64,000 nucleotides of DNA from Escherichia coli (GTDB lineage: Bacteria; Pseudomonadota; Gammaproteobacteria; Enterobacterales; Enterobacteriaceae): the NCBI RefSeq assembly GCF_003790525.1, contig NZ_CP033636.1, one strand, 5' to 3'. Made by a program: the position numbers and the translations under genes. The notes beneath the pieces are model-generated. The model made no database searches and was not told where the DNA came from. It saw nothing but the letters and a program-made list of their open reading frames with translations. Positions 20,414 through 22,453 of the stretch are shown here, piece after piece (position 1 is the first letter of the stretch; the number at the start of each line of letters is the position of its first letter).

Positions 20414-21034
20414 TTGGTTGCCTCGATGAAGAGCTGCTTTTCTGATTTACCCGTTAAAGACGGCAAGTCCGGAACTTGGAAACTGGACACTTTCGAAATT
20501 ACCACAGATAAGGCGCTGACCCTCGCCCTTCGTGCCGAGTGTACTGGTAATACAGATGAGTTTATCCCGCCCGGTAGATATCGCCGCTTGTCCAACGGCT
20601 GGGATGTGGTGATGTCCAATACCCCGATGGAGATCCGAACCTGCCAGGATTTTATAGAGCGAGCCACCGGGCGGGTGCTCATTAATGGTCTTGGTCTTGG
20701 TATGGTGCTCCACGCCATTCTTCAGAAAGACGATGTAACCCATGTCACGGTAATCGAAAAAGAACAGGATGTTATTAACCTCGTTGCAGCCTCGTTTGCA
20801 ACCGATCTTCGCGTTGAAATTATTAATGCTGATGCAATGGAGTATTGTCCACCAGCTGGCGTTACGTACAACGCTTGCTGGCATGACATATGGACAGACT
20901 TCGCAACAGCTAATCTCGCACAGATGGATAAGCTGGAAAGTAAGTACCGGGACATCTGTGACTGGCAGGGATCGTGGGGCAGGGAGGAGTGTGAGCAAAA
21001 GCTCATTGAGTTCCAGAATCTTGAGGCTGATTAA
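20414..21034 (+). CDS. possible small SAM-dependent methyltransferase-fold protein
   Basis: 206-aa ORF; glycine-rich VLINGLGLGM followed by an acidic strand (VTVIEKE), resembling methyltransferase motif I; weak. Confidence 0.3.
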   Translation: MVASMKSCFSDLPVKDGKSGTWKLDTFEITTDKALTLALRAECTGNTDEFIPPGRYRRLSNGWDVVMSNTPMEIRTCQDFIERATGRVLINGLGLGMVLHAILQKDDVTHVTVIEKEQDVINLVAASFATDLRVEIINADAMEYCPPAGVTYNACWHDIWTDFATANLAQMDKLESKYRDICDWQGSWGREECEQKLIEFQNLEAD

Positions 21035-21202
21035 TCCAACTTGCGAAGGTGTCTCCGCTAAAGGAGCCCGGCTCGCTCTGTGCAAGCCCAGCTGTGCTGC
21101 ATGATTTGGCAAAGTCTTCAACAAACCAGATCGGTCTGATTTAGTAATCTCACTTCCAACCATCAGGCCGATATAATAACTGTATCCCCATTAGGATGGC
21201 TG

Positions 21203-22453
21203 ATGAGTACGATTAATACGGACTTAATTGCGCATATCTACGCTGCCTCCGAATCGCCGTTGACCAACGACGAGCTTTATCGCGAAGTGCAGCGTAAAAC
21301 TGGCATGTCGGATGCCGAATTGCACGAACTGAAAGAATTTGGGTCAGATAAAACCAGAACCAGCGGCGTCAAACATAAGGTTCGCTGGTTTCAGCAGACT
21401 CTCCGTCAGGCCGGGGTCATCGAACGCGTTCCAGAAAAACGGGGCGTCTGGAGATACGCCTCTAAGACGAAAACAAACCTGCATGAGTCATGGGAAAAGC
21501 TCTGTGTTGTCGGTTTCTCAACTTCTCTTGGGGCATCGGTTTTTGGAAACGCCTATGCCTTCTTCAGCAATATCACCGAGCAAATTCATCTTTGCCTGAC
21601 CTCGCCACCTTACCTCCTTCGAAATTCAAGAGACTACGGGCACGGAGGGGGGCGTGGCGAGCAGGCTTATATTGACTGGCTTCTGCGTATCCTCGAACCG
21701 ATCGTGAAACAGCTTGTACCGGGCGCAAGTGTGGCATTGAATATCACTCAAGATAGCTTTAATAGGGGTAGGCCTTCACGTTCTCTGTATCTGGAGCGTC
21801 TGACACTGGCATTATGTGACAAGCTGGGGCTTGAGCTCATGGACAGGCTTCAGTGGGTGAATCGCAGTAAGCCCCCATCGCCAACGCACTGGGCATGTAA
21901 GCAACGGGTGCAGCTCTGCTCATCGTATGAGCCTGTGCTGTGGTTTACCAATGATGCGAGTAAGGTTCGTTCAAACAACTTACGTGTACTACAACCGCAT
22001 TCAGACCAGCATCTAAAATTGCAGGCAGCAGGCGGTGAAAATCGCACGACCTTTTATGGTGATGGGGCGTACCAGCTTAAAAGCGGTTCCTTTGGAAATA
22101 AAACAGAAGGAACGATCCCCAAGAATACTTTGTTTTACGGCAATAGCTGCGCTGATACGAGATTTTGCCATTCCATTGCCCGCGAGCTCGGTTTTCCGCT
22201 GCACGGTGCAACGTCTCCTACCAGGCTTGCAGCGTTTCTGATTGAGTTTTTGACAGAGCCGGGAGATCTTGTTGTAGATCCCTTCGCTGGCTTGCATAAA
22301 GTCCCCATCGCAGCCGAGCGACTTGGCAGACGTTGGCTGGCGACGGACAAAATCATGGAGTGGCTGGCGATTTCCCGAAACCTTTTTACGGCCGCACCGG
22401 GATATAAGAGTAACCCCATGCTGGATGAGCTCGCCGAACTGTATCGGACTTAA
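21203..22453 (+). CDS. DNA methyltransferase (N4/N6 class, beta-type motif order)
   Basis: 416-aa ORF; catalytic SPPY (CLTSPPYLL) in the N-terminal part and SAM motif VVDPFAGLH near the C-terminus. Confidence 0.65.
   Translation: MSTINTDLIAHIYAASESPLTNDELYREVQRKTGMSDAELHELKEFGSDKTRTSGVKHKVRWFQQTLRQAGVIERVPEKRGVWRYASKTKTNLHESWEKLCVVGFSTSLGASVFGNAYAFFSNITEQIHLCLTSPPYLLRNSRDYGHGGGRGEQAYIDWLLRILEPIVKQLVPGASVALNITQDSFNRGRPSRSLYLERLTLALCDKLGLELMDRLQWVNRSKPPSPTHWACKQRVQLCSSYEPVLWFTNDASKVRSNNLRVLQPHSDQHLKLQAAGGENRTTFYGDGAYQLKSGSFGNKTEGTIPKNTLFYGNSCADTRFCHSIARELGFPLHGATSPTRLAAFLIEFLTEPGDLVVDPFAGLHKVPIAAERLGRRWLATDKIMEWLAISRNLFTAAPGYKSNPMLDELAELYRT

What the first reader, a model, noticed from the sequence alone, without database searches (positions are those of the whole stretch)
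20414..22453. Tandem methyltransferase-like genes of different classes
A beta-class methyltransferase (SPPY then C-terminal FxGxG) sits immediately downstream of a small protein with a methyltransferase-like glycine motif, and a third methyltransferase (NPPF) lies at 11642. Several distinct methyltransferases in one plasmid region suggest pre-emptive protection against different host restriction systems.
Basis: partly seen in the sequence, partly recalled or inferred. Interest (0 to 1): 0.45.

Follow-up and report, generated by a model that had tools for sequence, protein, structure and literature searches.

The report
Plasmid DNA methylase beside unstudied methyltransferase
Two neighbouring genes on a common IncHI2 resistance plasmid: one is an ordinary, already-annotated PvuII-type orphan DNA methylase, and the other belongs to a large, unstudied family of very small methyltransferase-like enzymes of phages and plasmids whose target is unknown.

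Summary
The window is IncHI2 plasmid backbone, found at 90-100% identity in about 1000 plasmid records.

- **ORF-B (21203-22453):** a beta-class amino-methyltransferase. It has an invariant SPPY, then a TRD, then motif I, which reads DPFAGLH rather than a strict FxGxG. It is homologous over its whole catalytic and TRD region to the N4-cytosine methylase M.PvuII (profile E=5.6e-61). It carries an extra N-terminal Mrr_N winged helix and has no recognisable nuclease neighbour. RefSeq already annotates it.
- **ORF-A (20426-21034, 202 aa):** a class I SAM-fold protein (pLDDT 93.7). It is closest to guanidinoacetate N-methyltransferase and spermidine synthases. It matches none of the DNA-methylase profiles in PADLOC. 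It belongs to a family of at least 1500 clusters in phages and plasmids, with no Pfam model and no conserved neighbour.
- **Third gene (11642-12403, minus strand):** an M.TaqI-like NPPF methylase.

The ORF-A/ORF-B adjacency is specific to the IncHI2 lineage, so this is not a two-gene system.

"Pre-emptive anti-restriction methylation" is an established idea. It is plausible for ORF-B and the third gene but unsupported for ORF-A. An IncA/C plasmid methylase that is probably the 50%-identical ORF-B homologue (gene identity not verified) has a predicted CAGCTG specificity, yet no such methylation appeared in the published methylome.

Overall the finding is ordinary. ORF-A is the one loose end worth following.

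The parts
20426..21034 (+). ORF-A: 202-aa class I SAM-dependent methyltransferase-fold protein (WP_000833773.1, 'hypothetical protein'). It belongs to PHROG 15480, and UniProt auto-names it 'spermidine synthase'.
20684..20701 (+). ORF-A motif I (NGLGLG), the SAM-binding glycine loop. It lacks the Asp of the spermidine-synthase GGGDG.
   Evidence: Invariant in 33 family members. Aligned to GGGDG of SpeE with D replaced by L. Coordinates.
20879..20893 (+). ORF-A post-beta4 motif WHDIW. The invariant D154 aligns with the catalytic Asp of spermidine synthases.
21035..21202 (.). 168-bp spacer between ORF-A and ORF-B. No consensus promoter or terminator was found.
21203..22453 (+). ORF-B: 416-aa orphan beta-class DNA amino-methyltransferase, M.PvuII-like (WP_000104323.1, 'site-specific DNA-methyltransferase').
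   Evidence: Pfam. PADLOC MTase_II PDLC03323 E=1.2e-46. Family profile against M.PvuII 1boo E=5.6e-61. Pairwise 31% identity over 281 aa. Foldseek top hit is 1boo.
21251..21454 (+). ORF-B N-terminal Mrr_N-type winged-helix domain (aa 17-84). M.PvuII has no such domain.
   Evidence: Pfam PF14338 E=1.8e-6. Present in most family members. The alignment to M.PvuII starts only at aa 105.
21602..21613 (+). ORF-B motif IV, SPPY. S-P-P is invariant or nearly so in the family.
22277..22297 (+). ORF-B motif I, DPFAGLH. This is the degenerate FxG type, as in M.PvuII (DIFGGSN).
11642..12403 (-). Third methyltransferase: 253 aa from the RefSeq ATG (WP_001167416.1). Gamma-type order, EFGDG (nt 12068-12082) then NPPF (nt 11879-11890). 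The catalytic core is M.TaqI-like.

Best explanation
These are two independent backbone genes of IncHI2 plasmids that happen to be adjacent in this lineage.

ORF-B:
- It is an orphan M.PvuII-type beta-class DNA methyltransferase.
- It most probably makes N4-methylcytosine. This is inferred from the SPPY motif and the full-length homology to M.PvuII, TRD included.
- Its target is possibly CAGCTG or a related palindrome. That is inferred only, from 31% identity.
- It has an added N-terminal winged-helix DNA-binding domain.
- It methylates plasmid DNA so that a cognate type II nuclease in a new host cannot cut it. It is probably expressed only transiently or conditionally, not constitutively. This step is also inferred.

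ORF-A:
- It is a minimal SAM-dependent N-methyltransferase of the spermidine-synthase/GAMT-like branch.
- It binds SAM rather than decarboxylated SAM, because the gatekeeper Asp of GGGDG is replaced by Leu.
- It uses the invariant Asp154 (WHDIW) to deprotonate and position an amine or guanidino-type acceptor.
- Its acceptor is unknown, and it is not a DNA methylase of any described class.

The third gene, at 11642, is an M.TaqI-like N6-adenine methylase.

Shown: folds, motifs, homologies, distribution, and the absence of recognisable partner nucleases. Inferred: the bases modified, the target sequences, the timing of expression and the biological role.
For: ORF-B:
- Pfam N6_N4_Mtase plus Mrr_N.
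- PADLOC type II MTase E=1.2e-46.
- Family profile against M.PvuII E=5.6e-61, covering residues 9-295 of 323.
- Foldseek top hit 1boo, E=2.3e-21, TM 0.80.
- S134/P135/P136, D359/F361/G363 invariant or nearly invariant in 30 homologues.
- pI about 9 across the family.
- No NCBIfam or PADLOC hit for any tested neighbouring ORF.
- Homologues sit as orphans on IncC plasmids, Klebsiella MOBH plasmids, Pseudomonas megaplasmids, Aeromonas plasmids and ICE-like islands: 2251 plasmid records.
- CAGCTG is not avoided in the window (39 observed, 37-38 expected). The compositionally equivalent CTGCAG occurs once against 19-27 expected.

ORF-A:
- pLDDT 93.7.
- Profile against SpeE E=4.6e-6, with the GGGDG Asp replaced by Leu and the catalytic Asp conserved.
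- Invariant SAM-site residues.
- No PADLOC methylase hit and no Pfam family.
- 1503 clusters at E<=1e-30.
- 104 viral contigs, 26 genome loci and 31 cultured phages.
- No conserved neighbour in 103 loci.
- ORF-B lies within 10 kb only in IncHI2-type and Aeromonas plasmids and is absent next to the Klebsiella homologue.
Against: - No biochemical or methylome evidence exists for either gene.
- 31% identity to M.PvuII does not fix specificity or even the base. REBASE-style predictions cited in PMC4393132 write the CAGCTG prediction as m6A.
- In S. Typhimurium CFSAN001921, an IncA/C plasmid methylase with predicted CAGCTG specificity produced no detectable CAGCTG methylation (PMC3868858 Table 1; PMC4393132). 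It is probably the 50%-identical ORF-B homologue, though I could not verify the gene identity. The family may therefore be silent, conditional or inactive in culture.
- Most palindromic hexamers are also not avoided in the window, so the CAGCTG count does not discriminate.
- ORF-A could still methylate DNA through an unrecognised mode. Its phage relatives are basic (pI 8-9) and sit near replication genes. One Lutibacter locus pairs it with a homologue of the third methylase.
- Sequence-level similarity of ORF-A to GAMT is not significant (hhalign probability 3.5%).
Confidence: 0.6

Rival explanations
1. All three genes are DNA methyltransferases with different specificities. Together they pre-methylate the plasmid against several restriction systems, and ORF-A is a small, TRD-less, promiscuous DNA methylase.
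For: - Three SAM-fold genes lie within 11 kb of backbone that also holds a DndC-like gene.
- ORF-A relatives in phages lie near replication genes and are basic.
- The Lutibacter locus L027 has ORF-A and MT3 homologues 1.2 kb apart.
- Small promiscuous plasmid methylases exist, such as M.EcoGIX (PMC7736820).
Against: - ORF-A has no (D/N/S)PP(Y/F/W) motif and hits none of the type I, II, III or orphan methylase profiles in PADLOC.
- The IncHI2 protein is strongly acidic (pI 4.6, net charge -13).
- It has no conserved association with DNA methylases.
Confidence: 0.2
2. ORF-A is a counter-defence or host-takeover enzyme of mobile elements. It methylates a non-DNA target, such as a host protein, a tRNA base or a small-molecule signal.
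For: - The family is almost confined to phages, plasmids and ICE-like contexts across many phyla. It is always a solitary gene in early or establishment-type gene arrays, next to Lar, DUF4326, integrase, DUF957 and similar genes.
- Its nearest folds act on small molecules, protein N-termini and RNA: GAMT, COMT, METTL13, TrmR and m1A58 MTases.
- One AFDB neighbour carries an MnmC-like label.
Against: - The evidence is purely contextual, with no partner or target clue.
- No fusion is informative. The single GHKL-ATPase fusion, P0256, may be a gene-calling artefact.
- Nothing ties the family to a defence system.
Confidence: 0.2
3. ORF-A is a true polyamine aminopropyltransferase (spermidine synthase), as the automatic UniProt and Bakta-type annotations state.
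For: - The family profile hits spermidine synthases as its best PDB sequence matches (E=4.6e-6 to 1e-4).
- Pfam Spermine_synth is hit weakly by 6 of 33 members.
- AFDB names and plasmid and phage annotations use this label.
Against: - The GGGDG Asp that excludes the SAM carboxylate is Leu (GLGLG) in all members.
- The second Asp of the D-x-x-D diamine site is not conserved and is Thr here.
- The protein has 202 aa against about 280-300 aa for true enzymes, and only five Rossmann strands are predicted.
- NCBIfam scores are 24 bits against cut-offs of 260-537.
- GAMT, not a spermidine synthase, is the best structural match.
Confidence: 0.05
4. ORF-B is not protective. It is either a silent or decaying relic of a PvuII-type R-M system, or an epigenetic regulator of plasmid genes.
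For: - No CAGCTG methylation was seen in a strain carrying the IncA/C plasmid whose predicted-CAGCTG methylase is probably the ORF-B homologue (PMC3868858, PMC4393132).
- No consensus promoter was found in the region.
- The added winged helix could target specific sites.
Against: - Purifying selection is strong (dN/dS 0.10).
- All catalytic motifs are invariant across 30 homologues at 45-86% identity.
- The gene is retained in 2251 plasmids of several MOBH lineages.
Confidence: 0.15

Closest known systems
M.PvuII (PDB 1BOO), the N4-cytosine methyltransferase of the PvuII type II R-M system (CAGCTG)
   Same: - Beta-class order.
- SPP(Y/F) motif IV.
- Degenerate motif I (D-x-F-x-G).
- Homology across catalytic and target-recognition regions (profile E=5.6e-61; 31% identity over 281 aa; best Foldseek hit).
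   Different: - ORF-B has an extra roughly 100-aa N-terminal Mrr_N winged-helix domain.
- No adjacent R.PvuII- or C.PvuII-like gene is recognisable.
- It is a backbone gene of conjugative plasmids.
- Its specificity and the modified base are unverified.
M.EcoGIX / M.BceJIII, single-strand-specific leading-region plasmid methylases (PMC7736820)
   Same: - Plasmid-borne orphan beta-class amino-methyltransferases.
- Proposed to protect entering DNA from restriction.
   Different: - Those enzymes have DPPY, make promiscuous m6A at SAY on ssDNA, and are about 230 aa.
- ORF-B has SPPY, a full M.PvuII-like TRD and a wHTH.
- ORF-B scores only 25.5 bits against NF010253, whose cut-off is 244.
- Leading-region position is not established for IncHI2.
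Spermidine synthase SpeE (e.g. E. coli 3O4F) and guanidinoacetate N-methyltransferase (3ORH)
   Same: - ORF-A shares the class I fold with an N-terminal beta-hairpin region and a V-M-x-x-TP-type segment before motif I.
- It shares the acidic residue at the end of beta2 and a catalytic Asp just after beta4.
   Different: - ORF-A is 202 aa, about 30% shorter.
- Its glycine loop is GLGLG instead of GGGDG.
- It lacks the second diamine-binding Asp.
- Sequence similarity to GAMT is insignificant.
- It occurs only on mobile elements.
- Its substrate is unknown.
M.TaqI-type gamma-class N6-adenine DNA methyltransferases, and the methylase modules of polyvalent proteins of phages and conjugative elements
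   Same: - The gene at 11642-12403 has motif I (EFGDG) followed about 60 aa later by NPPF.
- It aligns to the M.TaqI catalytic domain (E=1.2e-6).
- It matches methylase modules of giant phage proteins (phrog_9133 E=3.6e-45; phrog_15406 E=7.7e-33).
   Different: - It is a stand-alone 253-aa protein.
- It has no recognisable C-terminal TRD.
- It has an unassigned roughly 75-aa N-terminal region.

Membership tests
Beta-class N4C/N6A DNA methyltransferases (Pfam PF01555), M.PvuII subfamily - ORF-B | Circularly permuted order: motif IV, then TRD, then motif I | tested here: met
   SPPY at aa 134-137 and DPFAGLH at aa 359-365. Pfam model matched 1-218 of 221.
Beta-class N4C/N6A DNA methyltransferases (Pfam PF01555), M.PvuII subfamily - ORF-B | Catalytic (S/D/N)PP(Y/F) tetrapeptide conserved | tested here: met
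   S134 and P136 invariant and P135 nearly invariant in 30 homologues. Position 137 is Y or F.
Beta-class N4C/N6A DNA methyltransferases (Pfam PF01555), M.PvuII subfamily - ORF-B | Full-length homology to a biochemically characterised member, TRD included | tested here: met
   M.PvuII 1boo: profile E=5.6e-61 over residues 9-295. Pairwise E=2.3e-39. Foldseek rank 1.
Beta-class N4C/N6A DNA methyltransferases (Pfam PF01555), M.PvuII subfamily - ORF-B | Methyl transfer to a defined base and sequence | not testable with these tools
   Literature lead only. A predicted-CAGCTG beta-class methylase on an IncA/C plasmid, probably the 50%-identical ORF-B homologue (gene identity not verified), gave no observed motif (PMC4393132, PMC3868858).
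Complete type II restriction-modification system (PvuII-like) | Adjacent cognate restriction endonuclease (and C protein) | tested here: not met
   The tested neighbouring ORFs on both sides (20013-20267, 22734-22880, 22806-23111, 23296-23622, 23688-23945, 24172-24963 and others) hit no NCBIfam or PADLOC model. Homologues elsewhere are also orphans. A novel nuclease cannot be excluded.
Leading-region ssDNA methylases (M.EcoGIX family, NF010253/PRK13699) | Family-level sequence match and DPPY | tested here: not met
   25.5 bits against a cut-off of 244, and only the motif I region matches. The motif is SPPY, not DPPY.
Leading-region ssDNA methylases (M.EcoGIX family, NF010253/PRK13699) | [quoted passage not shown] | not testable with these tools
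   mobI, the MobH relaxase and traD lie at 52.3-58.8 kb on the minus strand. oriT is presumed at about 58.8-59.5 kb by analogy with SXT/IncC. The nicked strand and the direction of transfer are unknown to me.
Known DNA methyltransferase classes (amino-MTases alpha/beta/gamma; C5) - ORF-A | Motif IV (D/N/S)PP(Y/F/W) or the PC motif; a match to DNA-methylase profiles; a target-recognition domain | tested here: not met
Class I SAM-dependent methyltransferase fold - ORF-A | Rossmann-like sheet with a GxGxG loop, an acidic residue at the end of beta2, and motif III/IV residues | tested here: met
Spermidine synthase / polyamine aminopropyltransferase - ORF-A | GGGDG loop whose Asp selects decarboxylated SAM | tested here: not met
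   Aligned to VLIIGGGDGA of E. coli SpeE as VLINGLGLGM, so Asp is replaced by Leu in all 33 members. The role of that Asp comes from my knowledge of the spermidine synthase structures.
Spermidine synthase / polyamine aminopropyltransferase - ORF-A | Catalytic Asp after beta4, plus a second Asp (D-x-x-D) that binds the diamine | tested here: inconclusive
   The first Asp is conserved (D154 aligns with the Asp of VIISDCTD). The second position is Thr in this protein and variable in the family.
Spermidine synthase / polyamine aminopropyltransferase - ORF-A | Curated family score (NCBIfam equivalogs) | tested here: not met
   Best score is 24.1 bits against a cut-off of 472. Others are 14-15 bits against cut-offs of 260-537.
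Guanidinoacetate N-methyltransferase-like - ORF-A | Significant sequence or profile similarity in addition to fold similarity | tested here: inconclusive
Gamma-class N6-adenine DNA methyltransferase (M.TaqI-like) - gene at 11642 | Motif I before motif IV NPP(Y/F), and similarity to characterised members | tested here: met
   EFGDG at aa 108-112 and NPPF at aa 172-175. M.TaqI E=1.2e-6. PADLOC type II MTases about 1e-12 and mad2 3.7e-14.

The most novel reading that the evidence does not exclude
ORF-A would represent a large, uncurated family of minimal (about 200 aa) SAM-dependent N-methyltransferases specific to phages and conjugative elements: at least 1500 clusters at 50% identity, with no Pfam model and no experimental work that I could find. 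It would act on something other than DNA bases in the known way, for example a host protein, a tRNA or a small-molecule immune signal. That would make it a new kind of establishment or counter-defence function.
Probability: 0.2. Interest if true: 0.65.

Novelty: new member of a known kind. Interest (0 to 1): 0.3.

Why it matters
IncHI2 plasmids are major carriers of mcr and ESBL genes. What lets them establish in new hosts is therefore of practical interest.

ORF-B adds little that is new. It is an annotated orphan methylase of a type already expected on conjugative plasmids. Two points are still useful:
- It turns out to be a backbone gene shared by the IncHI2, IncC, Klebsiella and Pseudomonas MOBH plasmids.
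- The probable IncA/C homologue appears silent in culture. This makes a simple, testable prediction: methylation only around transfer.

The more valuable lead is ORF-A. It is a very widespread enzyme family restricted to mobile elements. It is mis-annotated either as 'hypothetical' or as 'spermidine synthase', and its substrate is unknown. Finding that substrate would annotate thousands of phage and plasmid genes.

Tried and rejected
1. A conserved partner for ORF-A. I clustered 2329 ORFs within 6 kb of ORF-A homologues in 117 loci and found no neighbour family shared beyond close relatives. Recurrent neighbours were only generic phage replication or packaging genes.
2. ORF-A/ORF-B linkage. 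tblastn of ORF-B against all loci found adjacency only in IncHI2-type plasmids, a 4.6-kb separation in Aeromonas plasmids, and no linkage elsewhere. I rejected the idea of a two-gene module.
3. Domain fusions of ORF-A. Among the top 150 representatives only P0256 (an N-terminal GHKL-ATPase-like fragment) and a few unannotated extensions appeared. These were uninformative.
4. Promoters, terminators, inverted repeats and Rfam. No consensus promoter was found. Three terminator-like sites matched the chance expectation. There were no Rfam hits, and the only hairpin is at 19943-19990.
5. CAGCTG over-representation. There are 39 sites against 16 expected from dinucleotide shuffles. The excess disappears with order-2 or order-4 Markov expectations (37-38 expected). 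I rejected this as a signal in itself.
6. Literature. I found no paper mentioning WP_000833773, WP_000104323 or phrog_15480, and nothing on IncHI2 methylomes.
7. The CFSAN001921 plasmid. I tried to show that the 221-kb plasmid carrying a predicted-CAGCTG methylase is IncHI2. It is IncA/C (PMC3868858). The record is not in the plasmid collection, so the link to ORF-B is only through the 50%-identical IncC homologue.
8. Direction of transfer and leading-region status for IncHI2. I found no usable source.
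Full report
**What the window is.** The 2.6-kb region around the finding matches 1003 plasmid records. Of these, 595 match at >=99% identity. Nearly all are 190-370-kb conjugative MOBH/MPF_F plasmids typed IncHI2A, from Escherichia, Salmonella, Enterobacter and Klebsiella. The window also contains repHI2 (4682-5770), three Ig-like-domain genes, mobI, a MobH relaxase and traD (52.3-58.8 kb, minus strand), and the start of the trh genes. The finding lies inside a roughly 35-kb array of co-directional genes on the plus strand (13.7-48 kb). Most of these are small and unannotated.

**Checking the observation.** Both ORFs exist and both are under purifying selection. Against the Enterobacter-type IncHI2 lineage, dN/dS is 0.16 for ORF-A and 0.10 for ORF-B.
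- ORF-B (21203-22453, 416 aa) matches Pfam N6_N4_Mtase (E=1.3e-21) and has an N-terminal Mrr_N winged helix (E=1.8e-6).
- SPPY lies at aa 134-137. The SAM-binding motif I is DPFAGLH at aa 359-365.
That motif lies in the variable region. The true motif I is of the degenerate FxG type, and M.PvuII has the same type (DIFGGSN). The beta-class assignment is right.
- ORF-A most likely starts at the ATG at 20426, giving 202 aa. RefSeq and the homologues use this start.
- The ORF-A glycine motif is NGLGLG (aa 87-92).
- The two genes are separated by 168 bp.
- The third gene (11642-12403, minus strand, 253 aa from the RefSeq start) carries EFGDG and then NPPF.

**ORF-B.** A profile of 30 homologues hits the N4-cytosine methylase M.PvuII (1BOO) at E=5.6e-61 over residues 9-295 of 323. 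That span covers both the catalytic and the target-recognition parts.
- The pairwise alignment shows 31% identity over 281 residues.
- An AF2 model (pLDDT 79.6) has 1BOO as its best Foldseek match (E=2.3e-21). The next best matches follow at about 1e-14.
- PADLOC's type II methylase model PDLC03323 matches at 1.2e-46.
- The catalytic S-P-P and the D-x-F-x-G of motif I are invariant or nearly so across homologues at 45-86% identity. The family is uniformly basic.
- None of the tested flanking ORFs matches any NCBIfam or PADLOC model, so no restriction or control gene is recognisable.
- The family, including its Mrr_N domain, occurs in 2251 plasmid records: IncHI2, IncC (50% identity), Klebsiella MOBH plasmids (about 52%), Pseudomonas megaplasmids (about 45%) and Aeromonas plasmids. 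It also occurs on ICE-like islands. It is always an orphan inside arrays of small hypothetical genes.

ORF-B is therefore an ordinary, already-annotated orphan methylase of the M.PvuII lineage. What sets it apart is the added winged helix. SPPY and the M.PvuII homology argue for m4C. This rests on established knowledge of motif IV in amino-methyltransferases and is not a test. The target sequence cannot be read from 31% identity.

**A literature lead on activity.** Pirone-Davies et al. list a plasmid-borne type II beta-class methylase, M.SenTFORF23885P, with predicted specificity CAGCTG in S. Typhimurium CFSAN001921. They place it among methylases 'not assigned to a motif' (PMC4393132).
- The genome announcement says the strain's 221-kb plasmid is IncA/C. 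It reports only five m6A motifs, and none is CAGCTG (PMC3868858).
- IncC plasmids carry the 50%-identical homologue of ORF-B, so this is most probably that gene.
- I could not verify the identity directly, because the record is not in the collection.
- If the identification is right, the family is silent or conditional in cultures at 37 C. That would fit an establishment function, but equally an inactive gene.

**Restriction-site census.** CAGCTG occurs 39 times in the window. This looks enriched against dinucleotide shuffles (16 +/- 4). It is exactly as expected once trinucleotide composition is modelled (37-38 expected). CTGCAG, built from the same CAG and CTG triplets, occurs once against 19-27 expected. 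Several other palindromes (GCCGGC, CTCGAG, CCGCGG, GGCGCC, CGATCG) are nearly absent. The plasmid therefore clearly practises site avoidance against some enzymes but not against PvuII-type cutting. This is compatible with methylation of CAGCTG, but it does not discriminate, because most palindromes are not avoided either.

**ORF-A.** Pfam gives only marginal hits: RrnaAD, Methyltransf_25 and Spermine_synth, with no dedicated family. PHROG 15480 ('methyltransferase') matches at 4.6e-34.
- The AF2 model is very confident (pLDDT 93.7, pTM 0.87). It shows an N-terminal beta-hairpin region and a five-stranded Rossmann core ending in a long helix.
- The family profile hits spermidine synthases in the PDB by sequence (E. 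coli SpeE, E=4.6e-6). In that alignment the invariant Asp154 of WHDIW falls on the catalytic Asp of VIISDCTD. The Asp of the GGGDG loop is replaced by Leu (GLGLG). From the spermidine-synthase literature as I know it, that Asp excludes the carboxylate of SAM. A second diamine-binding Asp is not conserved.
- NCBIfam aminopropyltransferase models score 14-24 bits against cut-offs of 260-537.
- The automatic UniProt, Bakta and phage annotations ('spermidine synthase', 'polyamine aminopropyltransferase') are therefore probably wrong. A SAM-using N-methyltransferase is the best reading.
- ORF-A hits none of PADLOC's type I, II, III or orphan DNA-methylase profiles. In IncHI2 it is strongly acidic (pI 4.6), whereas the phage members are basic.

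**Distribution of ORF-A.** An exhaustive profile search finds 6262 representatives at E<=1e-3 and 1503 at E<=1e-30. Almost all are single-domain proteins of 185-230 aa.
- Homologues occur on 104 viral contigs and in 31 cultured phages of Stenotrophomonas, Microcystis, Bacteroides, Caulobacter, Microbacterium, Gordonia and Vibrio.
- They occur in 26 genome loci spanning many phyla, and in 1598 plasmid records.
- Clustering all neighbours within 6 kb found no conserved partner.
- ORF-B is adjacent only in IncHI2-type plasmids, lies 4.6 kb away in Aeromonas plasmids, and is absent from the neighbourhood elsewhere. About 600 Klebsiella MOBH plasmids carry a 68-70%-identical ORF-A.
- The 'tandem' arrangement is thus lineage-specific and does not define a module.

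**The third gene.** Its core aligns with the M.TaqI catalytic domain (E=1.2e-6). It also matches PADLOC type II methylases and mad2, and the methylase modules embedded in giant phage and plasmid proteins (phrog_9133 E=3.6e-45, phrog_15406 E=7.7e-33). It is a plausible stand-alone N6-adenine methylase, again without a recognisable nuclease partner among the tested neighbours.

**Interpretation.**
- It is reasonable for ORF-B and the 11642 gene.
- It is not supported for ORF-A.
- No step of it is shown here.
- Whether this part of IncHI2 enters the recipient early is unknown. mobI and the relaxase lie about 30 kb away. oriT is probably just upstream of mobI, by analogy with SXT and IncC. The plus-strand genes point toward it, as leading-region genes do in F-like plasmids. 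I could not establish which strand is nicked.

**Verdict.** The finding is largely ordinary and already annotated. The residual interest is ORF-A, an abundant family of minimal methyltransferases restricted to mobile elements and with an unknown substrate.

Noticed in passing
window 1-64000 (whole window): Several 6-bp palindromes are strongly avoided. CTGCAG (PstI) occurs once against 19-27 expected. GCCGGC occurs 0 times against 13-16. CTCGAG occurs 0 times against 5-7. CCGCGG occurs 0 times against 3-9. GGCGCC occurs once against 6-9. CGATCG occurs twice against 8-9. CAGCTG, made of the same triplets as the PstI site, is at expectation (39 against 37-38).
   Followed up: partly
window 25637-28021 (+): A 794-aa orphan DndC-like PAPS-reductase-family protein sits 3 kb downstream of ORF-B in the same gene array (PADLOC DndC E=4e-38; also BrxP 4.7e-6). 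No other dnd genes were noticed nearby. It may be another DNA-modification or counter-defence gene.
   Followed up: no
L027 9989-10558 and 11793-12542 (Lutibacter sp. MAG contig): A 45%-identical ORF-A homologue and a 40%-identical homologue of the third methylase (11642 gene) lie 1.2 kb apart on the same strand in a Bacteroidota contig. This is the only such pairing seen outside IncHI2.
   Followed up: no
P0256 (405 aa, metagenomic protein): One ORF-A family member is fused to, or mis-called with, an N-terminal roughly 215-aa segment carrying GHKL/Bergerat ATPase-like motifs (E..N..DAGA...DNGRG). This reading is by eye and was not tested.
   Followed up: no
window 20426-21034 compared with phage homologues: The enterobacterial plasmid members of the ORF-A family are strongly acidic (pI 4.6-5.4, net charge about -13). 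Most phage and environmental members are basic (pI 8-9.4). This charge reversal within one family is unexplained.
   Followed up: no
window 20447-21163 (-): A 238-aa antisense ORF completely overlaps ORF-A and recurs in related plasmids. It has no family match, and the ORF-A frame shows purifying selection, so it is most likely a shadow ORF.
   Followed up: partly
window 13700-48400 (+): About 35 kb of almost uniformly co-directional, mostly small unannotated genes point toward the mobI/relaxase/oriT region. They include a RelE/ParE toxin, HNH, DUF6012, DUF957, DUF3085 and hok. The layout resembles the establishment or anti-defence islands described for leading regions, but transfer polarity in IncHI2 is unknown to me.
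   Followed up: partly
plasmids CP088806.1 and NZ_ON960341.1 (hits H1, H2): In two IncHI2 plasmids the 2.6-kb region is interrupted by an IS5 insertion. The match is split into two pieces spanning 3.8 kb, so the locus tolerates disruption in at least some isolates. I did not determine which gene is hit.
   Followed up: no
window 1118-3574, 7768-10188 (-), 13782-16199: Three roughly 805-818-aa Ig-like-domain proteins flank the replication gene and the third methylase. Ig-like proteins of this kind are reported to be required for IncHI conjugation (title of PMC6764697, seen).
   Followed up: no
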